From Paecilomyces variotii (taxonomy: Eukaryota), in the NCBI GenBank assembly GCA_004022145.1, contig RCNU01000007.1: DNA of 64,000 nt. The stretch is one strand, 5' to 3'. The stretch's first letter is position 1. The number at the start of each line of letters is the position of its first letter. Shown in pieces: positions 38,315 to 51,354 of the stretch. A program made the translations under genes and the position numbers. The notes beneath the pieces were generated by a model that saw only the letters and a list, made by a program, of their open reading frames with translations, was not told where the DNA came from and made no database searches.

Positions 38315-38895
38315 GGTCATGGATGGCCTGGGGGTTTCGGTCCGTATCGACTGAATAGGGGCCTTTTTTTTTTCATGGGAGGGATCTGAATCCCATCTGC
38401 ATTATTCGACACGAGCGTATTACAGCAGGATTTGAGTGATATGGGATCCCAACGTATCATAATGACGGGATGATGAACGCTGGTGGAAGGGGACTATCTA
38501 TACACGGAGCTCTTTCGATCAGGGGGGGATGTAGTTGCAACAACAATCCTTTTGGCTTCATCGTATAATGTAATGAGACATACGAGATATTGATACTTGA
38601 TTCGTTTTCGTACCATATAATCATAGTTTAGCCATGTAAGTGTAATGTCAGATACGTCTTTCAGATAGATCAGGATCAGAGGAGACTCAGGAGAGGAACT
38701 CTCATAATTATCGACCTGCTTACGTGCAGGCGATCCTGTTGGCTGACGTGAGCGGCAAATCCGCAGGCGCTGATTGGCTGCGCGAGCTACGGCAAAATGC
38801 CTCCATCGACCCCAACTCGGCATCGACATCGCCAACATCGCGAGAGTCGAGACAGTGTGCCCGTCCAGTGCTCTCGCGCCTTCACATCGCCAGTG

Positions 38896-39901
38896 ATGGC
38901 TTCAAAATTGATCCCCTCCTTCCCGCGGGTCGGCCGCCAACTCATCCCCCAGATTTCCAAGCGACAATGCCGCCCCTTCTCGGTTGGATCGCAGCTGCGG
39001 AGCGAGTCTCTGTTCGTGGTACGTTTCCAGACCACCGTTCAATTGTCGCCGACAATGGGCCATAAGTGGTCCGCAGGCGACATGATTCTGTCTCAATTGG
39101 ATGTATCACTCGAATACTAATGATTCACGTCTTCCAGCACCGCAATAGCCCGCAGAACAACCCCTCGATCCCTTTCAAGTTCAACGCTCAGAACCTCGCC
39201 CTCATCGATGAGATTCTCAAGCGCTACCCCCCGCAGTACAAGAAGGCGGCTGTCATGCCCATTCTTGACCTTGGCCAGCGTCAGCACGGCTACACCAGCA
39301 TCAGTGTCATGAACGAAGTGGCGCGGATTCTGGAGATGCCACCCATGCGTGTGTACGAGGTTGCGACTTTCTACACCATGTACAACCGGGAGCCGGTTGG
39401 CAAGTTCTTCGTTCAGGTTTGCACAACGGTACGTGAATCAAATAGTCTCATTAACAGGATCGGCCCTTTCCGCCGAATTACCTCTTGAGCGACCTTTGGC
39501 TGATTTGCAACTCTTGATAGACTCCCTGCCAGCTTGGTGGCTGCGGCAGTGACAAGATCGTCAAGGCCATCACTGAACACCTCGGAATCACTCCTGGTCA
39601 CACCACTGAGGACGGCCTCTTCACCTTTATCGAGGTTGAGTGCCTTGGAGCCTGTGTCAATGCTCCCATGGTCCAGATCAACGACGATTACTATGAGGAT
39701 CTCACGCCCGAGTCCACCAAGTCTCTCCTGACTGCTCTGAAGGAGTCTGCACTTGCTGCTGACAGTGGAAAGGTGGTCAAGGTTCCTGCTCCCGGTCCTC
39801 TGAGCGGAAGACAGTCCTGCGAGAACAGCGCCGGTCTGACCAACCTGCAGACCGTGGAGTGGAACCCGGAGACGATGATGCGGAAGGACGGAGAAATCTA
39901 A
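38896..39901 (+). CDS. nuo-24: NADH:ubiquinone oxidoreductase 24-kDa subunit (NDUFV2/NuoE); exons 38896-39018, 39138-39428, 39521-39901
   Basis: Presequence, [33 protein letters not shown], and 2Fe-2S ligands CTT|TPC and [10 protein letters not shown]. Confidence 0.95.
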
Positions 39902-40620
39902 GCGTTTTTGATTTTTCTTATATCTCATCTGGTGTATCGGAAGTTTTCGTGTCTCTGGAATTTTATATGACCGGTAGCGGAGACAGGAAGACATTGCCGA
40001 ATGTTTATGTACAGTACATCTATGCTGCATGTTCTCTTCGTCGGATAGATGGGACATGGCCGAGAACGGCATAGTGGAGGTCGTTATTATGGAAACCATA
40101 AATTCAATACCAACTTTAAGACTTTTAGCTCTCATTCTACTGTTGTTTAGCCGGTAGTCTCTCTTAACTAGAGTATGGACAATATAGTTAATATACAGGC
40201 TTATGAAATCATGTCCAGACACCCGCCCTTGCTATCTAGTTTAGAGAAGGTTAGATAGTAGTAATATGGTATTCTGGTGCCCATCAGATGGGAACTTGAA
40301 TTTCGGTTTACTAGACCTTGAGAAATTACTAGTTCATGCGCTATGTACTGTAGTCCACTGGTGCCCGGTGTGATTAATATAGCTCATAGCAATCCCAGAG
40401 TTGACCATGCGAGATATCTTCATGAGTCCTAAGTTACTCTACTAATATGGCATTCTGGCACTCACCAGTCCGCTATTCTAGACACATCTCCTGGTACTCG
40501 AGTGACACGGAAGTGGTTGCTGGCGTGATATTATCAGTTCGGGATTAGAAATTTCAATATAATTCTGGTATTATTCACATCAAAAAAGAAACAATTTGCA
40601 ATTTATCTCCCTCCCTCAGC

Positions 40621-43600
40621 CTAAACAACGCCTTCTCCAAGAGAAAGCCCTTCCCAACCACGGACGTCCGACCCCTGGATCTCTTCCTCCGGCACCAGGA
40701 CGAACTCCTCCCCCCGCTTCACAACGACTCTTCCGCGTCTCTGTTGCAGGATATTGACATCGATGGTCGCCCCGGCCAGGAAATGGTAGATATGGACATG
40801 CTTTTTCTGTCCATACCGGCGGGAGCGACCAATGGCCTGCGTCATTGTCGCCTCATAGTCGTATTGGCTGCTTGCAAGCAGCGGGGAAAGGAAGACCACA
40901 TGGTTCGCGCATTGGATGTTCCTGAGTAGAGGAGGAAAGTCAGTTAAAGGGGTCTCAAGCAGTCAAAAGCAGCTCATTCCTGGTTCACTGATGGTTCACT
41001 TACAACCCGGCCGCGTTCTCTCCTCCTATGTTCAAGACGAGGACCTTGGCCTTGTTCGCCTGGAAATCCAGGACCTTTTGCGCGGCGCTTCGATCAGCAT
41101 GTCCTATTACCAGACAGGAGATCGAGGCGCGCTGCAGTGCCTGGGCTGCGGCTTCCTGGACTCCGGGAAATTGCGCAAACACGATGACTTGATCATCGTG
41201 TGGTACCCGGGAGGGATCCTGGAGTAGTTGAACGAGGGCATCGAGCTTGGATCCACCATACGATGGTCCTACTGAGGCGTCGTTGCCTTCAACCAGCATG
41301 GGCGCTCTAATCACCCGGTACTCCGGTGCGGCTCCTCTGCAGCCATTGACGGCGCATTCCTCTTTCATGACGACTGCTTTTACACAGTCGTCACACACGA
41401 TATGACCGCAATGGCCGAGAACATGGACTTGGGTGCGGTCCGCTGTCTCACGGCCACAAACAGAGCAAGAAAGGAGCTGGCGATCACTTTGCAGCATCCG
41501 TAGAGAAGCCAGGAACCTCAGTGCTCTCTGTCGAAAAACCCATTCCCGCGTGAGGCTTCGAAGAGTCATCGCGACCTCACGTAACGCAGGGGCGAGGTCA
41601 TCGTGCCCTGGTTTTTTCGGCCATGACTGGTCTTTTCGCAGAGGTTGTGTTGTTGTGGCGGGAGCAGCGTCTACCTCAAGTTTTACCCTCTTGGTAGAGC
41701 GTTGGGATTTCGTATCAGGATCTTGTGTTACTTGGACGGCAGATCCAGAACCATCAGCACCTTCCGCAATGTCGTCTTCCTCCTCTGGTTGGCCGCATTC
41801 AGCATTCTCCGTGGCAGGCTTGCCGGCGCTTTTCATTTGCGCAAGTTCTTCATCACTGATGAAGAAATTGTTCCAGTCTTCTGCTTTACATTGCCTCATT
41901 GCTGCATCTATTAGAGGCTGCAGCTGCGAGGTGACATCTGTGTCCCCAAAGTTATGTCCAGAGACATTGTTAACAAAGTCATCCAGATGCCTATGAGGCT
42001 CGCCTAACTCTTGAAAGAGCCATATGGCCAATTTGAGCTTCGATCTCACATCATTGATTAGCTCGTTGAGCTGCTCTGTTCTAGTGACGATGAGATGGTC
42101 ACAAGTCACAGGAGTCTGCAGCAATCCGCCTGAGCCAGTATCCAGAAGGAATGGGCAGCAGCGTTTCAACAATGCTTCTTGAGCGGACTTGCTTGAGCCT
42201 ATGAGCTCATTGATCCTTGCAACCTGGTCGTTATTGAATCTACCGCCGCCATTTCTCCTCAACTGCAGATCTTGGCTCATTAGTTGCATATAGAGTTCAA
42301 GATAGATGACGGTTTCTGCGGCAGACAGTTTAACGACACAAAAGTGCTCCGTCCACGGGATTTCGTCTATCTCAGCGATGTTCTGTTCCGCGTTAGTCAT
42401 TAAACAGCCGGTGTGGGCAGTGTTTTCTTCTTACCTGACGCATGAAGCAGTCGAGAAACCTTTGCGCAACTTCGTGTCTGCGGTCATGCCAGGCCTGGCT
42501 ATGGGGGGTTTTGAAGGAAAGGAATTGCTCGGCATCTTTATGTCGTTTAGTACATGATATTTGCAAGGGAAGGCCTCACTTACCAGATCGCTCGGATCTC
42601 GCAGCTGCGAGGCGCGCATGCTGCGAATTAGAGGGATCTTCCTCATCAATTCCAAGACCAAGCCCCAGGAATTGTGCAATCGATTTCACATCGGAGAACC
42701 CGTTTAATGGTGGAGTCCCTGACAGAACCCATTTGGAACGAGCTTTCAAAGTCAGAAGCGTTGCGATCCTTCTCTCGTTCACATATGTGAATTCGTCTAT
42801 CACAATGCGATTGAACTCGAACATATGAACGAGCACATTCCTGAGTGTCGTCCAGTCCTGGTTAGAGGTTTTGATACCGAAGTCGCTGGCGTCGTCCCAA
42901 AGCTTTTCTTCTTCCTTTTTCTGCGGCAGTTTGCCCTTCTGAACAGCACTCATCTTTCGTTTGTTCCCAGATGCAGGGCCGTCAGCTTCTGGATCCTGAC
43001 CCGAGTTCATCTCCACTTGCTGTTTCTCTTCTTGAGCCTTGGCAAACTGCTTTCCCTTGAGCCGCTTTGACGGCACGTAAGTGTAGTAGGCATTTGCTTC
43101 CTTGAGATCTTTACGTTTCTCCGAAATGGTATGGAGTAGTTTCCGAGGGCCTTCCTCTCGCAAGATGTTAACGTTGTTCGCAATACTTTCAAGGGTCTCA
43201 TTGAACCACTGATCGAAGATGCGTCCATCCCTCAAAGGGACAGATGGAGCCGCAGCAAATTGTTCGACGCGGTTATAATAAGCAGCACCATTGAACACAC
43301 TCCATGACAGAAGAATGATATCTGCCTCTTGAAAGTTCGCGATGGACTTGCTTTTCAGGGATGCTGCCGTGGATATGACGAGAAGTTTGTATGTATTTCC
43401 CAGAAACTTGCGAATTTCAGCCTGCCATTGCTTCACCATTATCTGCGGCACAATTATCAAAGTTGCTTTGAGTGGGATTGATCCATCCGCAAGTCCTGCA
43501 TCCTTGATCAATCGTCGCTTATCTATCTGGGATTGTGTGTCGATCAGTCCGAGGGTCACTGCAGTTTTCCCGTACCCAACTTCATCAGCCAGGATTCCCC

Positions 43601-46600
43601 CGCGAACTACCTTCTCGACCGTTGCTTTGCCCTCAGCGCGCCACATCATAGAAGGGAGAAGAGCTTCCTCAACTTCCTCTTCCTGGAATGGCTGAGCGTT
43701 GTCGTCCTCTTGAGAGATCATCCACTGCAGGGAACGCAACTGTTCGGGACGGAGTTTCATATTCCGGAAGTTTGGTGGCTGAGAGCAGGATGTTGTATCT
43801 TTATTGCTCATCAGAAGGAATCCTCTGGATCCAATCTCTTTGATATCCGGAGCGTTTGGAACGAGACGCCAGCTAAGCCCAACCTCCTGGCAGATTCTGG
43901 GACCCACGAGGTTATCGTAGGCTTGGTGCAACAGGGTACTTATGTTCACGGCGAGTTTGAGATGCACAATGTTCTCTTCGTCCACCATGCTGAAAGCCAC
44001 AAAAGCCGATGGGCGTGACTTGATGTTTCTTTCATATGTGGCAGCTTCGAAAGGGTCCTCATAAGGCACGATAGTTTCGCGACGACCAAGACCCCATATT
44101 GTTCGTGGCTTTTTGGGGGCGCACACGGAGCATATCGTTTCTCCCGGATCAGAAATGTATGCAGAAACTAGGTTCCAATCTTCAAAATCAGATATGTCTG
44201 ATGATTTCTGTATCAACCACGCGAAGTCACTAAGGAATCCTGCCGACTCCATCAGATTAGTAGATTGCCACGACCCGGGCTTCCAAGACGACGGTATTTC
44301 CGACACGGGAACTGCGAACTCCATGAGAACGACGTTAGAATTGTGGCACTCAACATCACCAATAGTCAGAGTATTCATGGTAGAGAGAGTGCGGTACGTT
44401 ATTTCCGAGTCATTGAACGTATCAAGTCTCATTGTGTCGCACTTGGTCCACTTTCTGTAGAAGAGATCCACCTCAGATTTCTCCTCGTTAACGTCTGCTG
44501 ATCGCCATTTATGACTGAGCTCCCCCAAGATAGAACGGCGGGCATTTCCAATGAGACGCTCATGCGAGAACGAAAAGACGAACGGGTCCAATTGGGGGTC
44601 GGCACGTTTTGTCGGATCCAGAAAGAGATAAACAGGAGGACTGTTCTGCGAAGCCAATCTCCTATGCAAAGAAGCACAAGCTGTACCGCAATCAGGAAGC
44701 AGCTCATATGTGCCACGGACATCTATTTCCAAGTCTTTGATAGCCTCATCCGATCCAGAGACAAGAAGGTTATTCCAGACCTTTGCGTCAAAAAAGTGAC
44801 CATCTTGGAGTCCAACTTTCGACTCGTATGCAGCAATCTGAGATCCAGTGCCGCAGATTTCCAAAGTGGTCTTAGAGCTGACAGGAGCACATATCTCCCA
44901 CTGTCCTTCAAGAAGTGAACCAGACTTTGCGCTCATTCTGGCAATGGGCTTTCCAAAAATCTCGCGGTTTATCGACGTGGCTGGCTCGTCCACTGAGGGT
45001 TTTACGTACAGAAGCCACTCAACCTTGTCATCATGAATCTCTAAGCACAGTCTGGAAGAGGGGCCATCATATAGCACGGTCCAGTTTCTAGCCCGTTTGA
45101 TAGACAAGAAACGGAGCTCGTCTCCAAATGCGCGACACACGGATTCCAAAAATCCATCCCATATGTTGTGCGGGCAATCCAAGTCCCTCTTGAGGTCGTG
45201 GTAGTCGTGATCTGAGATTCCAGAGAGTATCAAACGCATTGGGATTATTTGCTTAAGTTTTGTCAAAAACTCCACAGGGTCTTTTCGGTTTTCCAAAGTC
45301 CAATTCGGGAGAGCATGGTAATCATGGGCTGGGTTTCCTGAACAGACTGTACAGGCAGTGTGTCCGCAGAGTGAACATTGAAGAATACCCTTGCGTTTGA
45401 TAGTGGCTTGACCTTCGCAACGACACAGCTGCGAGCTCCTTTTCGCCTCGTCGAGTATTTCAGTTATTTCAATCTCGGTACTTTCGGTAAGTCGTAGAGA
45501 TCGTTCGATCATCTCATAACTATCGTTTGGGAAGATCGTCATGCTATCTTCGTTGTCATCTTCTGGATCTGCGAAGCTACCGTTCTCGAGAACCTTGTAT
45601 CCGCAAATCAAGGCTGATAAGATAGCTGTCCCAACTACAGTTGAAGTCATCGCGTTCCCTGCCAAATCTTGCAAGTCTCTTTGGGACTCCCTGGTCAGAA
45701 TCAGTCGGTCAAGAGGTAAACCTTGCAAAGAGAGTGATTCCAGTCCGCAGAGTGGACCGCCTCTCGTTGTGATGTATGGAATGCCGCTGGGAGTGATACA
45801 TCCCACGATCCCGAACTGGCGAGTATCGATTTCACGGTCTATGCCTTGGGACAGTTCGAGGAAACGTCTATCTGGACGTTAGTCTAACACTTATTGCGAG
45901 CTTAAGGACAACTACTTACTCTTTGTAGTTAATATCGTACCTATTGGTACGAAGCGTGCGCAAGAAATTCATGTCCAGAGTGTCCCAGATACGCTCGGGT
46001 TGTACTCGTGACCAGTCCTGCCAGACAAAGTCAGGCATGTTACAAGAACCGTGGTCCTGGAACTTGGACAGAGGCCGCTTGTATCCAAGTTTGTTGTTCA
46101 AACGGTAGCTCTGATGACGAGCTTGGTACTTGGACCAGTTGGCAGTGCGAGATCTGCTGCTGGCGCTTTTCTCAGCCATGTCCTTCTGAATACGTTCAAG
46201 TCTGGGATCATCGTCGTCAAGAATAAACGCAGATGCAGGAGAGCTTGCGCGACGTTCGAACTGCGCAAATATTTGCGCCCACTCGGCAATAGCATCATTT
46301 GCGATCTGGTCACATCCCTCGCGCTGTCGGTCAATACAAATCATGTATCCTCGTTCGCGAGTCTGTGGGATATAATAATCTTTAGTGTCAACTATCGTGA
46401 AGGCGGCAGCATAACCGATCTTCTGCCAGTCTTCGGCGGCCTGCGCCCATGGGGCACCTTTCACATTTTCGAGAATGACCAAGGGTGGCCGGTAGACTTT
46501 GGCATAGTTCAGGATTCCATAGAAGGTAGAGCCTGACTCCCCCTTATCTTCTAGGGACTTCTTCTGATTATTCAGGTTTGAGAAGTCGACACATGAAGCG

Positions 46601-47376
46601 CCCGCTATGAGGATATCGGGGTTCTTGGGGATCGGTTGTAAGGCTCCGTATGCCGTGACACTAGACTGTTAGTCAACGTATGTTTGATTAGGAAGGTATG
46701 TCTTATACACTTACGCTTCTGATCCTTGCATCTGGGTAACGTCTCTAAAAATCAGGGGCGGATGGAAGTTCGTCTCGATGTATGCTTGTTTCAGAACAAC
46801 TATTTCCGCACTGAATAGGTGGTCGAATTTGAAGTCGATACCGAAAATGTTTTTCAGACCTGGATAGATCAGTCAATACCATTCTTGCGGAGATCCTTGA
46901 GTTATGAAAAGATAATACATACTCTTCCCGACCATCTCCAAGGCAAGTAGAGGGCTTTCAGTGCCGGAACACATAGTCACGACCCTCAGCTTCCTCGAAC
47001 CCATATAGGTCAGGAAGTCTACCAATCCAAGCTGTATGGCACGTCTAGTGATATCATCAAAGATATCCTTCAGGTTGTGAATAGGGGGTAAAGTCGGGTC
47101 AAGACCACTCTGGGAGATATCCATGGGAATCCTCGACCTCAGGATCTCCGGTATGTCACCTTCATAATCTTGCAGGGAATCAGAGACAGTGATCTTCTTT
47201 TGACGCGTCGAACGTGCCAATACTGGAACAGTATATTCCTTTCCTGATTTCCCTGCAGAAGACATTTCAGGACCATTATTGTCATTATCCTGACTGGTCT
47301 CTGAGGTTGGAGGCGCCTTGTTGCCAGACTCAGCAGGACGCCTCGACGCAGAACGCGTCTTTCTCGGCGGCACCAT
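40621..47376 (-). CDS. dmt5: DNMT5: C5-cytosine DNA methyltransferase fused to SNF2 ATPase, RING finger and helicase-C, ~2134 aa; exons 47376-46923, 46859-46715, 46660-45920, 45867-42584, 42535-42435, 42382-41004, 40921-40621
   Basis: MTase motifs: LRVVTMCSGTESPL (I), FSAEI (II), DILIAGASCVDFS (IV), VILENV (VI), PQTRERGY (VIII), QDLAGNAM (X). SNF2 motifs: GILADEVGYGKT, IVIDEF, LSGTP. RING: CSVC..CGHIVCDDC..CAVNGC. C-terminal QAIGRSRRYGQ. Exon lengths sum to 6405 nt, in frame. Confidence 0.9.
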
Positions 47377-48924
47377 GTCTGAGATGATTCTTGAAGATAT
47401 TATCCAGATATCAAGCTTCCGTATCTCCAGGTACTGCCTTTATGGCTTTCCTGAGGAGTAATAGTGAGTATTTTGATAGAAAGAAGTATAGGGCACGTCC
47501 GATCACGTGGAGGTGAATGAGAGGAGGGGGTTAGGACGTGAAGGATCTTAAGTTTGATGAGGTTTGTGACAGTTTAGAAGTGGGCACGCGAAAGATTGGC
47601 CTCACTTGCGCGCAAGTTTTCACAACATTTCCTTTGTTGACAGCACATGTCCCCTTTGGGGCTAGAGTCGTGAAAGCCCAAGCCTGGCTGCACGAAGATG
47701 GGATGGGCGAGCTGTACCATGATTTGTACCCTGTTCAGGAATACATCCTATGGGAATTGCATAATGCTTTATGTACGGGGGGAGATATTACTAGTCATAT
47801 TGTACAGAAAAGCTTGAATTCCTATATCTCTGGGAGAGAAAGGTTCTATATTGATGGTTTGAATGGAGCAAGGAATCTATGTATTTTGATCCTTATTCCG
47901 ATATTTTCTCTTGAATCACAGCACCTAGAAAGGTAGGTACTTACCACAGTATTGCCACAGCAAAGTTCTAAGAACGATTTTCCTTGACACCTCAGATCGC
48001 GAATGGGTATTGAGTCTGTTCTTCCACAAAGCTCTCGTCCGCGGTTTGAGCATTCAGTCAAAGTAGATTCTAGTGTCTCTGTTTCTATGTATATATTCCG
48101 CTACCATGTTGAATGTGTAGCCCTGATTCCCTGTCCATGCATAGGTAAGACCGGAAGAACGAAAAGGGTCCAAAAGCTCAACGCAGTGATACGGGTTTTG
48201 CTCTAATATGGACTGTTAGTTTGATACCCTGAATACGGATCATTACCACCTATAACATAGGGCCGTTAAACAGAACGGAGATATTCAATGAGGTCCGGTC
48301 AAGGAGTTCTTCGACATCCTATGGCGAGGAGACATAATTAACAGTGGGGGCCTGTATATATTAGCAGGAAACACTCCGTAAGGAAGTCTCGAGCAGTCCC
48401 GACCTTGCTATCCATAATGGATCTATGACGCTAGAATAGTATTCATCTGAAGTGTCTTAATGGGAAATTGAATATATAGTTCCCGGGTCGTCAATACAAA
48501 GTTTTGCCAAGAATTGCGAGATTCTGCTAAGTAACCCTCATGGGTGAACTGCTTAGTTACAACTTACGAGGGAGCATTTACGAGGTCTCAAATAGCAGTC
48601 AAGAAGCCTTCATCCGCTCATAATATGTTTTTTTATTCCTGGCACTATTTCTACCAGAGAATAAATTATGTCCTAGATACACAATACGCAAAGAAATACC
48701 TGGCAGTTCAAGCAGATGAGGCATATCGCAACCACCATTCAAAACGAGATCGATCATACCGTAGCTGCAGACGCTCTGGACCATTTCACACCAAATAGTG
48801 CATGCAACCTTGTGACAAACCTTCCAGTTTACGCCATCCATTCCCAGTTAAAATTACCGCCGTTTCTGCGAGAGATAAGAAGAGACAGAGACATCGCGTA
48901 AGCGTTAGGAGATATCGAAACGCA

Positions 48925-49862
48925 TTACCTGCCTGCGCCTTGCATCAACTGTTGGCGCAGAAGCATGATCTGACTCCGCTCCACTGGAGGCAGTGCATCT
49001 ATGGCAGCCTGAGGCATGCTCAGGACCTGCTGCAACAGTTCGTCTTGGCCGGGAACCTGTTGCTGCGCAGGCATTGGCTGTTGTGCCTGCGGAGGTGCAA
49101 AAGGAGCGTTATGGACTGGTGGTGTCGATATTTGGCCTGGGACAGATGCGTAAGGCTGATAGGGCTGAGCAGCTGCAGCAGCAGCAGGCTGTGCTGCTTG
49201 TTCAACAACGGATCCTAGCGTGCTGTAGTCGACTAGGTTCATAAGAAGTAATGCTTGGAATATGGCATAGGCAAGCTGAGGGGCTTGTCGAAGGAGCTCT
49301 GTAGCTCGCGCAGGATCTGCGACTGCCAAAGATTTCATCTGAGAGAGCACATCGAGTAGTTGAGGAGGAGAGAGTGACGAAAGAGTCTGAGAAATCGCAT
49401 TTGGACAATCCAGGTGTGGTGGTACGTCGACGCCAGGAGGGAGAGGAGGCAAAGACGTTGATTGTTGCTGGTATCCTGACTGGCTATCAGGAGCCTGTCC
49501 GGCCATCTGGGATTGCTGAGAGTAGTCGGGAGGAATCGAATCCTTCTCGTTATTGTGTGGCCAATCAACCCGGATCTTCCTTCCCATGATCTCGTAGTCG
49601 TTCAGATTTCGAACAGCAGAAGCAGCAGCATCTGCATCTGCGAAGTCGGCGAACCCATAACCCTTCGGCTTGCCTGTCTCAGGATTCATCATGAGGCGGA
49701 ATTTCGTCACCGTTCCAGCGGAACTGAGGATGTCTTTCACCTGCTCTTCAGTGAGGTCTTTGTATGGTCAGTATGTTCACTGTCTACGATAAGGTCAGGC
49801 AAGCACATACTGTAGGGTATATTCCCCAAGAAGACACTTTTTCCTTGTCTTTCTGGCGCCAT
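48925..49862 (-). CDS. rna15: Polyadenylation factor Rna15/CstF-64; exons 49862-49811, 49757-48925
   Basis: RRM with SVFLGNIPY (RNP2) and KGYGFADF (RNP1), hinge APQLAYAIFQALLLM, C-terminal IDALPPVERSQIMLLRQQ. Confidence 0.92.
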
Positions 49863-50226: not shown

Positions 50227-51354
50227 ATGTCTGGCTCACCGCGGGATCAATGGGAGCGACTCCAGCTCATGCTGCAGAACCGCGGCAACCGGGGTGGCTT
50301 CGGTGGCTTTGGGGGCTTCCCAAGCGGAGGTGGTAGAGGCGCATTTGGCGGCCTTGGAGCAGTTGTCCTGATCGTGGCAGGAGGATATGCGCTATCGAAT
50401 TCTATCTTCAACGGTGAGGCAGCCTCGTGTTCCATATATCTCCTATGGCTTTTTCGCTGATGCATCATGGTGCAGTCGATGGTGGTCACCGGGCCATCAA
50501 GTACACTAGAATAGGTGGAGTGAAGAAGGAAATCTACAATGAAGGTAAGCAGGCCTACTCACGAATGCCAGGACTTTGTATCTAAGCTGACTTTTTCATC
50601 CAGGAACTCATTTCAAGATTCCTTGGTTCGAGACTCCCATCGACTACGATGTCCGCGCAAAGCCTCGCAACGTTGCATCCCTCACTGGAACCAAGGACCT
50701 CCAGATGGTTAATATCACCTGCCGTGTCCTGTCGAGACCACGAATCGAAGCCCTTCCTCAGATTTACCGAACCCTCGGACAGGATTATGATGAAAGAGTC
50801 CTCCCGTCCATCGTTAACGAGGTGCTGAAGAGCGTTGTCGCTCAATTCAACGCCAGTCAGCTGATCACTCAGCGTGAGAATGTTGCCAGACTCGTTCGCG
50901 ACAACCTTGCCAGAAGAGCTGCTCGCTTCAACATTACTCTGGATGATGTCTCCCTTACGGTAAGTTATGACGCTGGGCACCCTTTTGTGCCGTTGAGATC
51001 ATCCGCTAATATATCTTCCTTTTCCAGCACCTTGCCTTCTCCCCCGAGTTTACGGCTGCTGTTGAAGCCAAGCAGGTCGCCCAGCAAGAGGCCCAGAGAG
51101 CTGCTTTCATTGTCGACAAGGCCCGCCAAGAGAAGCAGGCTACTATCGTCCGCGCACAGGGTGAGGCTCGCTCTGCAGAGCTGATCGGAGATGCGATCAA
51201 GAAGAGCAAGAGTTACATTGAGCTCCGACAGATCGAGAACGCAAGGAACATTGCTCAGATCCTCCAGGAAGCCGGTGGCAAGAACAAGCTCTACTTGGAT
51301 TCCCAGGGTCTGGGTCTGAACCTGAACGCCGAGGGCAACGGTGAGAAGAAATAA
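50227..51354 (+). CDS. phb2: Prohibitin-2; exons 50227-50413, 50476-50544, 50604-50959, 51028-51354
   Basis: [57 protein letters not shown]. Confidence 0.93.

What the first reader, a model, noticed from the sequence alone, without database searches (positions are those of the whole stretch)
40621..47376. Intact DNMT5 (methyltransferase-SNF2 ATPase-RING fusion) in a Eurotiales-type genome
Seen: five separate ORF fragments splice into one ~2134-aa protein with all MTase motifs, including the catalytic Cys in AGASCVDFS (SC rather than PC), ENV and QTRER, plus intact Walker A/B and a RING finger. I see no N-terminal chromodomain, and there is an extra Cys/His cluster (CRCE..CSLCGHTACTVC..H) after the MTase domain. 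Established: Cryptococcus Dnmt5 is an ATP-dependent CpG maintenance methylase recruited via H3K9me, whereas Aspergillus-type genomes are reported to have little or no 5mC. Inference: a catalytically complete enzyme whose substrate, targeting and role in this lineage are unresolved; it may act in a stage-specific manner or in repeat defence.
Basis: partly seen in the sequence, partly recalled or inferred. Interest (0 to 1): 0.75.

Follow-up and report, generated by a model that had tools for sequence, protein, structure and literature searches.

The report
Mould DNMT5 with rebuilt methyl sensor
This is an intact copy of a known fungal DNA-methylating enzyme, but in this mould and its relatives (Aspergillus, Penicillium, Histoplasma) the residue that lets the enzyme recognise already-methylated DNA has been swapped, which may bear on why many of these fungi keep the enzyme while showing little DNA methylation.

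Summary
Confirmed: a single-copy DNMT5 gene of seven exons encoding 2134 aa, 97.5% identical to a Paecilomyces variotii protein. Its presence is known (88 of 94 Aspergilli). The 'Aspergillus paradox' does not apply directly, because this genome also keeps DIM-2, RID and HP1.

Two things were missed. (1) Of 29 residues named in the Cryptococcus structure paper, 25 are kept, but the 5mC trigger N669 is Gly. It is Gly in 118 of 121 named Eurotiales/Onygenales proteins and in 0 of 131 named others (127 Asn), and is paired with C593Y. The Cryptococcus N669G/Q673A mutant loses hemimethyl stimulation. (2) One RNA contig shows two spliced plus-strand introns over the methyltransferase exons; only sense intron 6 was seen spliced.

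Best reading: an active ATP-gated CpG methylase with a rebuilt sensor, acting weakly or stage-specifically on repeats. No activity was shown.

The parts
46923..47376 (-). Exon 1 (aa 1-151): about 87 aa of unconserved N-terminus without chromodomain, then MTase motif I (MCSGTE, aa 135)
46715..46859 (-). Exon 2 (aa 152-200): motif II, E170/I171/K175 = Cryptococcus E387/I388/K392 (SAM contacts)
45920..46660 (-). Exon 3 (aa 200-447): catalytic loop S222-C223...N230, ENV, QTRER, first part of the target-recognition domain
46591..46593 (-). Catalytic Cys223 (= Cryptococcus C440)
   Evidence: Cys in 120 of 120 homologues
46126..46128 (-). Tyr378 (= Cryptococcus C593, three residues before R596): clade-specific change
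   Evidence: Y 120 and F 1 of 121 named Eurotiales/Onygenales; C 125 and S 6 of 131 named others
45843..45845 (-). Gly455 in the flip-out loop ELSQGIDRE (= Cryptococcus N669, the 5mC trigger)
   Evidence: role of N669
42584..45867 (-). Exon 4 (aa 447-1542): flip-out loop, motifs IX-X, RING1, alpha/beta region, RecA1 with Walker A (43563-43592) and Walker B (42792-42797)
45324..45425 (-).
   Evidence: regex match in 106 of 120 homologues
42435..42535 (-). Exon 5 (aa 1542-1575), a 101-nt exon after a weak intron (AAG acceptor, no CTRAY match)
41004..42382 (-). Exon 6 (aa 1576-2035): helical domain with R1843 (= R2036), RING2 (41339-41467), start of RecA2
40621..40921 (-). Exon 7 (aa 2035-2134): helicase motif VI GRSRRYG (R2265/R2268/Y2269 equivalents), stop
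40922..41003 (-). Intron 6, the only sense intron seen spliced in RNA contigs
   Evidence: runs X1 and X2
46526..46575 (+). Plus-strand (antisense) intron, 50 nt, GTAGAG...CTGAT...CAG, lying over exon 3
   Evidence: (run X1 only)
46696..46755 (+). Plus-strand (antisense) intron, 60 nt, GTATGT...CAG, over sense intron 2 and exon 2
   Evidence: (run X1 only)
41004..47272 (+). Outer bounds of the inferred antisense RNA; its start is inferred to lie in exon 6, its ends are not mapped
   Evidence: inference; unstranded contigs

Best explanation
An intact DNMT5 of a Eurotiales/Onygenales subtype. SHOWN: complete gene, complete MTase and SNF2 active sites, both RING fingers, and a clade-wide swap in the 5mC-sensing site (Asn669 to Gly, Cys593 to Tyr). 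INFERRED from the Cryptococcus mechanism: it binds a CpG, contacts the orphan G and loosens the target C with the retained Q454/R458/C470, rotates the ATPase lobe, and ATP opens the SAM pocket for methyl transfer by C223. INFERRED and new: the Asn plug that 5mC displaces is gone, and the new Tyr on the neighbouring helix rebuilds the methyl pocket, so the enzyme still prefers hemimethylated CpG but probably with looser or weaker coupling. It copies marks laid on repeats by DIM-2 or RID, reaches heterochromatin through HP1 because it has no chromodomain, and is mostly used in a limited stage (most likely the sexual cycle), being damped otherwise by an overlapping antisense RNA.
For: 25 of 29 residues named in the structure paper are identical. 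Catalytic C, E of ENV, both R of RxR and N447 are invariant in 120 of 120 homologues. The catalytic domain evolves more slowly than the SNF2 cores in the Gly clade (ratio 0.71; 0.64 in other ascomycetes), so it is under selection. Q668, R672, C684, S667, R596 equivalents are kept in 115-117 of 120 (rest mostly gaps), arguing that CpG recognition persists. Gly and Tyr/Phe go together in 120 of the 120 Gly rows with both sites. DIM-2, RID, HP1 and a pre-SET protein are in the genome. Repeats show CpG as well as CpA loss; a fit needs CpG C-to-T at about half the CpA rate. RIP is active in the species (PMC6300479). Antisense splicing dominates the MTase exons in one run.
Against: No methylation or ATPase data exist here. 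The Cryptococcus N669G/Q673A mutant is the least stimulated by hemimethylated DNA and the N669/Q673 mutant loses most MTase activity, which could mean the subtype is a poor maintenance enzyme. A. flavus (DNMT5+RID) has no detectable 5mC and the Onygenales species U. reesii has lower CG than non-CG methylation (PMC7862722). That Tyr378 forms the pocket is inferred from sequence spacing only; my structure model failed. The CpG loss in repeats could come from RID or DIM-2. The antisense joints are in 1 of 4 runs, unstranded, with RNA status guessed; five of six sense junctions were not seen. HP1 binding and sexual-stage expression are untested. No SRA/Uhrf1-like match was found.
Confidence: 0.45

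Rival explanations
1. The swap removed the gate: Gly455 leaves the pocket unplugged and Tyr378 stands in for the methyl group or for the displaced Asn, so the enzyme methylates unmethylated CpG de novo. Kept quiet in mycelium and switched on in the sexual cycle, it supplies the CpG half of the RIP-like mutations of Eurotiales.
For: N669 is the residue that unmethylated DNA cannot displace. The swap marks the group in which Dim2 is mostly lost (PMC12543289) and in which DNMT5 is still kept in 88 of 94 Aspergilli without DIM-2 or DNMT1; a strict copier would have little to copy. A. nidulans MATE repeats show CpG over CpA mutation, and A. niger and A. fumigatus show CpG besides CpA. TRD columns 398-426 are more variable in the Gly clade.
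Against: The Cryptococcus double mutant lost activity on hemimethylated DNA; the passages read report no gain on unmethylated DNA. No 5mC in A. flavus mycelium. The swap is also in this genome, which keeps DIM-2. The laboratory RIP test in P. variotii was reported as CpA-biased. CpG bias also occurs in Tuber, outside the Gly clade.
Confidence: 0.25
2. The swap is a neutral compensated change and the enzyme is an ordinary, constitutive maintenance partner of DIM-2, as proposed for Zymoseptoria Dnmt5.
For: Everything else in the active sites is intact. DIM-2 supplies substrate here. Dnmt5 is the proposed source of residual CG methylation in Z. tritici. A single origin on the tree cannot separate adaptation from chance fixation.
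Against: Asn is kept in 127 of 130 named outside proteins with a residue there, from green alga and chytrids to Chaetothyriales. In V. dahliae, with the same three enzymes, Dnmt5 adds little. The antisense RNA suggests low sense output in at least one sample.
Confidence: 0.15
3. The protein is kept for something other than making 5mCpG, such as a Rad5/Rad16-like DNA repair or chromatin role of the SNF2-RING part, or action on another base or pairing.
For: Nearest other solved relative is RAD5. No 5mC in A. flavus. The V. dahliae authors raise a non-methylation role.
Against: The MTase core is more conserved than the ATPase cores in this clade; SAM and cytosine contacts are invariant. The Cryptococcus ATPase lacks the DNA-binding motifs of remodellers.
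Confidence: 0.1
4. The locus does not give a full-length protein (separate genes, retained introns, decay).
For: RNA contigs keep sense introns 1-5 (X1) and intron 4, and nearly all of intron 5 (X2); keeping intron 4 would stop the frame at 42576.
Against: Unbroken 2134-aa frame, colinear with Cryptococcus and over 100 full-length orthologues; the second allele differs by 53 substitutions, none at a catalytic residue; no RIP signature in the gene. Contigs drop minor forms.
Confidence: 0.05

Closest known systems
Cryptococcus neoformans DNMT5 (PDB 7R76/7R77/7R78/7T02; bioRxiv 10.1101/2021.10.01.462825)
   Same: Domain order MTase-RING1-alpha/beta-RecA1-helical domain-RING2-RecA2; SC catalytic dipeptide; 25 of 29 named residues; 1192 bits (P0001).
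   Different: No chromodomain; N669 to G, C593 to Y, N665 to E, Q673 to E, A618 to H; genome also holds DIM-2 and RID; no SRA/Uhrf1-like match.
Aspergillus/Penicillium/Onygenales DNMT5 (e.g. A. nidulans AN6076, P0051; surveyed in PMC9676040)
   Same: Same architecture, roughly 40-50% identity, same Gly/Tyr sensor state, no chromodomain.
   Different: Aspergilli lack DIM-2; this genome keeps it. Small private changes (AGASC for AGFSC, EIVVLK for EIVPFK). I found no biochemical study of any of these proteins in the papers read.
Verticillium dahliae and Zymoseptoria tritici Dnmt5 (PMC8091789, PMC8016269)
   Same: Ascomycete DNMT5 beside Dim2 and Rid; V. dahliae's also lacks the N-terminal chromatin-reading domain; small or residual share of methylation.
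   Different: Their sensor residue was not checked directly; named Dothideomycete relatives (Septoria, Zasmidium) keep Asn.
Rad5/Rad16/Rad8-type SNF2-RING ATPases
   Same: RING inserted in the SNF2 domain (6L8N hit).
   Different: No methyltransferase domain; 'Rad8' labels on DNMT5 records are a known misnomer.

Membership tests
DNMT5 | C5-MTase domain fused to SNF2 ATPase in one frame | tested here: met
DNMT5 | SC (not PC) catalytic dipeptide, ENV, RxR, GNAM, SAM contacts | tested here: met
DNMT5 | RING1 after the MTase and RING2 inside the ATPase | tested here: met
DNMT5 | Walker A K/T, Walker B DE, motif VI R..RY | tested here: met
DNMT5 | Groups with DNMT5 orthologues, single copy | tested here: met
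DNMT5 | ATP-dependent CpG methylation | not testable with these tools
   needs purified enzyme or methylome
Cryptococcus-type strict maintenance DNMT5 | Asn669 5mC trigger with Q673/N665 lock | tested here: not met
   G455, E459, E451
Cryptococcus-type strict maintenance DNMT5 | Orphan-G, insertion and target-sensing residues S667, Q668, R672, C684, R596, W590, E637, R638 | tested here: met
Cryptococcus-type strict maintenance DNMT5 | N-terminal H3K9me-binding chromodomain | tested here: not met
   not family-defining: PF00385 is listed for 1 protein (C. floricola) in three lists of 120
Cryptococcus-type strict maintenance DNMT5 | HP1 partner present | tested here: met
   gene present; binding untested
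Cryptococcus-type strict maintenance DNMT5 | Uhrf1-like SRA partner | tested here: inconclusive
   no PF02182 match; six-frame search can miss intron-split genes
Cryptococcus-type strict maintenance DNMT5 | No activity on unmethylated DNA | not testable with these tools
   needs in vitro assay
DIM-2 / RID | BAH domain or PC motif, no SNF2 | tested here: not met
   those genes lie elsewhere in the genome

The most novel reading that the evidence does not exclude
The ancestor of Eurotiales and Onygenales turned DNMT5, the strictest known maintenance methylase, into an ungated ATP-driven de novo CpG methylase by one paired swap (Asn669Gly, Cys593Tyr). Held down by antisense RNA in vegetative growth and released in the sexual cycle, it is the missing enzyme behind the CpG-type RIP-like mutation of Aspergillus and relatives, and the reason they could lose DIM-2 yet keep DNMT5 without visible 5mC.
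Probability: 0.2. Interest if true: 0.85.

Novelty: new variant of a known kind. Interest (0 to 1): 0.55.

Why it matters
Why Aspergillus-type fungi keep a complete DNMT5 without detectable 5mC, and which enzyme makes their CpG-type RIP-like mutations, are stated as open in the papers read. The sensor swap gives a residue-level, clade-wide difference from the only characterised DNMT5, at the residue its authors call the trigger, so Cryptococcus mechanism cannot simply be assumed for this group, which includes Aspergillus, Penicillium, Histoplasma and dermatophytes. P. variotii has transformation, crosses and demonstrated RIP and this genome keeps all three methylases, so their shares can be separated genetically. 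The gene by itself is ordinary.

Tried and rejected
First splice model used the first AG at introns 2 and 3 and gave stops; corrected. A strict motif regex suggested that Penicillium proteins lacked motifs IV and VI (69 and 86 of 120); the alignment showed TAC and QENV variants with Cys and ENV intact, so 'dead Penicillium DNMT5' was dropped. 'Extra zinc cluster', 'SC is unusual' and 'chromodomain loss is unusual' were rejected. Relaxed selection on the catalytic domain was not found (crude mean distances, no intervals). AlphaFold of aa 448-636 without alignment failed (pLDDT 34); no fold search was run. Pairwise C/T context counts between repeat copies are confounded by saturation; I rely on observed/expected ratios and the simulation, which started from window DNA, not a true ancestor. 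The bacterial promoter scan is irrelevant to a fungus. Runs X3 and X6 show no joints at all and run into intergenic DNA, so they say nothing on splicing; X2 has no cover above 44251, which is no evidence. The longest plus-strand shadow ORF has no Pfam match. Names could not be had for the Asn-bearing sister rows or the two outside Gly rows P0256 and P0300. The chromodomain hit L029 is not HP1. Bewick et al. 2019 was not held.
Full report
Observation. The gene lies on the minus strand at 47376-40621. Seven exons joined at six GT-AG introns (48-82 nt) give 6405 nt and 2134 aa with one stop. Five introns have a CTRAY-type branch match; intron 4 has none and an AAG acceptor. Pfam finds DNA_methylase, SNF2 and weak RING and Helicase_C matches in the expected order. 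The best database hit is a Paecilomyces variotii protein of the same length, 53 substitutions and no indels, none at a catalytic residue; the next hits are Aspergillus proteins at about 47%. So the organism is P. variotii or very close. The gene has normal composition (GC 0.50, TpA/ApT 0.56) and is not RIP-mutated. It is the only DNMT5 found by the PF00145 search of the genome.

The protein aligns along its length with Cryptococcus neoformans DNMT5, PDB 7R76. That chain has GTSCVDYS, and the structure preprint discusses S439 in place of Pro as a family trait. The 'extra' Cys/His cluster aligns with the chain's cluster after the MTase, where the preprint places RING1. The chromodomain is the exception, not the rule: PF00385 is listed for one protein, from Cryptococcus floricola, in three overlapping lists of 120; its N-terminus matches none of the other 336 N-termini or the window's at E<0.1 (337 of 366 long proteins had a usable motif I); 12 homologues with long N-termini have no Chromo match. 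The lack was already noted for V. dahliae. DNMT5 itself is reported in 88 of 94 Aspergilli.

Genomic setting. The same genome holds a DIM-2 (open frame of 1166 aa from Met, BAH plus MTase, E 1e-36), a RID, HP1 (chromo and chromo-shadow pieces) and a pre-SET protein (its SET part was not examined). No SRA domain was found (absence not shown). DIM-2 is absent from all Aspergilli surveyed and nearly absent from Eurotiomycetes, so this genome is the less usual, complete case and the no-substrate paradox does not apply to it. Of 48 reverse-transcriptase matches, 45 carry stops; of the 20 fetched, 18 have RIP-type indices. In 14 of these (the AT-richest; L007, L011, L016, L019, L021, L022 left out) observed/expected is 0.25 for CpA, 0.38 for CpG, 1.49 for CpC, 1.79 for CpT. 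A CpA-only simulation raises CpG to 1.69; the best of 180 grid points needs rates CpA 0.12, CpG 0.06, CpC 0.015, CpT 0.005. So CpG in repeats has been a target, but RID, DIM-2 or DNMT5 could each be the cause.

The sensor. Chain numbering plus 29 gives Cryptococcus numbering (checked by hand on C440, N669, C684, K1469, R2036). Of 29 residues that the preprint names, 25 are identical; D1725/E1726 were mapped by motif because that part of the alignment was cut. The four differences are A618H, N665E, N669G and Q673E. N665 and Q673 vary widely in the family. N669 does not. In the preprint it plugs the methyl pocket, is pushed out by 5mC, bonds R596 and frees Q668, the 'first domino'; unmethylated DNA cannot move it. 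The N669G/Q673A mutant has the least hemimethyl-stimulated ATPase and the N669/Q673 mutant loses most methylation; a single N669 mutant is not reported in what I read. Among 428 homologues the column holds N 278, G 128, gap 12, S 7, D 3 (an alignment-free regex gave N 276, G 126, S 4, D 3, 19 unmatched). Sorting the named rows by hand: Eurotiales, Onygenales and Arachnomyces, 121 rows, G 118, D 1, gap 2, N 0; all other named taxa, 131 rows (Chaetothyriales, Dothideomycetes, Lecanoromycetes, Ascobolus, Arthrobotrys, Agaricomycetes, C. floricola, chytrids, Tetraselmis), N 127, S 2, D 1, gap 1, G 0. The remaining 176 rows were unnamed or unsorted and left out of that count. Position C593 changes with it: Y 120, F 1 against C 125, S 6. 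A FastTree of 243 sequences (Eurotiales thinned, short or gapped rows dropped; built, so without the named Chaetothyriales) puts 52 of 54 Gly rows in one clade with support 0.999; two unnamed rows gained Gly separately. Parsimony needs 3 changes against at least 43 in 200 shuffles; this shows one main origin, not co-evolution. Of 108 columns at least 93% conserved in 144 Asn-type sequences, 17 are under 90% kept in the 118 Gly-type ones or differ in the window, six of them at aa 398-426 around the allosteric loop (column 455 differs by construction). The catalytic domain shows no relaxation: distance relative to the SNF2 cores is 0.71 in 48 Gly-clade proteins, 0.64 in 40 other ascomycetes and 0.54 in 34 basidiomycetes and chytrids; for the TRD 1.03, 0.84, 0.69.

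RNA. Of 22 runs listed I laid four. X1 gives one 6506-nt contig, 40598-47272, that skips sense intron 6 but keeps sense introns 1-5 and skips two plus-strand GT-AG introns, 46526-46575 and 46696-46755, with typical donors, lengths and, for the first, a CTGAT branch. On the minus strand these would read CT-AC, so they need a plus-strand RNA. X2, another study, skips intron 6 and keeps intron 4 and nearly all of intron 5. X3 and X6 show no joints. The simplest reading (inference) is an antisense RNA that starts in exon 6, runs past 47272 or near it, and outnumbers the sense mRNA there; X1 has no cover at 40300-40546, so read-through from the gene on the left is unlikely. Limits: one run, unstranded contigs, RNA status guessed, minor forms dropped.

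Mechanism. Shown: intact active sites, swapped sensor, partner genes, CpG and CpA loss in repeats, one antisense-spliced contig. Inferred: ATP-gated CpG methylation as in Cryptococcus (about 0.85 summed over the first three readings). I put 0.45 on a rebuilt pocket that still prefers hemimethylated CpG, used weakly or in a limited stage on DIM-2/RID marks via HP1; 0.25 on an ungated de novo enzyme; 0.15 on a neutral swap with ordinary constitutive maintenance; 0.10 on a non-5mC role; 0.05 on no full-length protein. Published methylomes fit low vegetative activity: none in A. flavus, CG 0.4% against 1.0% non-CG in U. reesii, but 32% CG in Tuber with the same three enzymes; I did not see the U. 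reesii, A. flavus or Tuber sequences, so their sensor state is inferred from relatives. Aspergilli with only RID and DNMT5 show CpG-type RIP-like mutation, which keeps the de novo reading alive; the CpA bias of laboratory RIP in P. variotii and the loss of function of the Cryptococcus mutant speak against it.

Novelty. A member of the DNMT5 family, not of the Cryptococcus strict type as structurally defined. A search for DNMT5 with N669, Q668 or 'flip-out loop' returned only the structure preprint; P. variotii with methylation and dim-2 returned one unrelated preprint; Dnmt5 with antisense and fungus gave 13 papers, 10 listed, none on this by title (listing only). Other searches. The library lacks most subscription journals, and the preprint's alignment supplements were closed, so the Gly may have been seen before. 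Papers seen: 10.1101/2021.10.01.462825, parts 1-4 of 6 (abstract to discussion); PMC9676040, passages and one whole section; passages only of 10.1101/149385, 10.1101/2020.01.05.895227, PMC13297926, PMC8091789, PMC8016269, PMC7862722, PMC12543289, PMC6300479, PMC9998398, PMC4352252, PMC2621366; PMC6533610 not seen. The scan's index had no look-alike and no fungal DNMT5 note.

Verdict. Real, intact, and as first described ordinary; the clade-wide sensor swap and the antisense RNA make it a new variant worth a direct test. Interest 0.55.

Noticed in passing
L005:2447-6130 (-), G000:C4: Single-frame DIM-2 with BAH and MTase, in a class where Dim2 is reported nearly absent.
   Followed up: partly
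L006:2131-4395 (-), G000:C78: RID-type gene in two frames separated by a likely intron; motifs SPPCQTFS, MEET, QSRKR, GNAVPP.
   Followed up: partly
L034:894-1716 (+), G000:C23; L033:928-1983 (+), G000:C45: HP1 gene split by introns, and a pre-SET protein that may be DIM-5/Clr4 (label recalled). No SRA-domain match in the genome search.
   Followed up: partly
L007-L026: Retroelement remnants with many TAA/TAG stops and loss of both CpA and CpG; L016 and L021 have normal composition.
   Followed up: partly
P0166 (Blyttiomyces): A chytrid DNMT5 listed with PF01429, which I recall as the methyl-CpG-binding domain: a possible second way of targeting.
   Followed up: no
P0256, P0300 (unnamed): Two DNMT5 fragments outside the main clade also have Gly at the sensor; independent origins that could test the pairing with Tyr.
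   Followed up: partly
P0046 (A. sclerotioniger), P0157, P0205 (Trapelia): Asp at the sensor position; P0157 and P0205 pair it with Ser at the C593 site.
   Followed up: no
window 46797-46812 and 46597-46602 (-): Private changes near SAM contacts: EIVVLK for the usual EIVPFK and AGASC for AGFSC, shared with P0001.
   Followed up: no
window 47379-47700: A separate low-depth RNA contig (13 against 68) just upstream of the start codon in X1; may be the sense 5' leader.
   Followed up: no
P0010, P0026, P0036, P0038, P0039, P0043, P0051, P0095: Aspergillus section Nidulantes-type proteins have N-termini of 300-540 aa before motif I, without a chromodomain match in those scanned; P0041 is listed as a 3235-aa fusion with PF00221, probably a gene-model merge.
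   Followed up: no
window 38752-39901 (+), 48925-49767 (-), 50591-51184 (+): Neighbours look like complex I 24-kDa subunit, an RNA15/CstF-64 protein and a prohibitin (labels recalled, not searched): a housekeeping neighbourhood.
   Followed up: no
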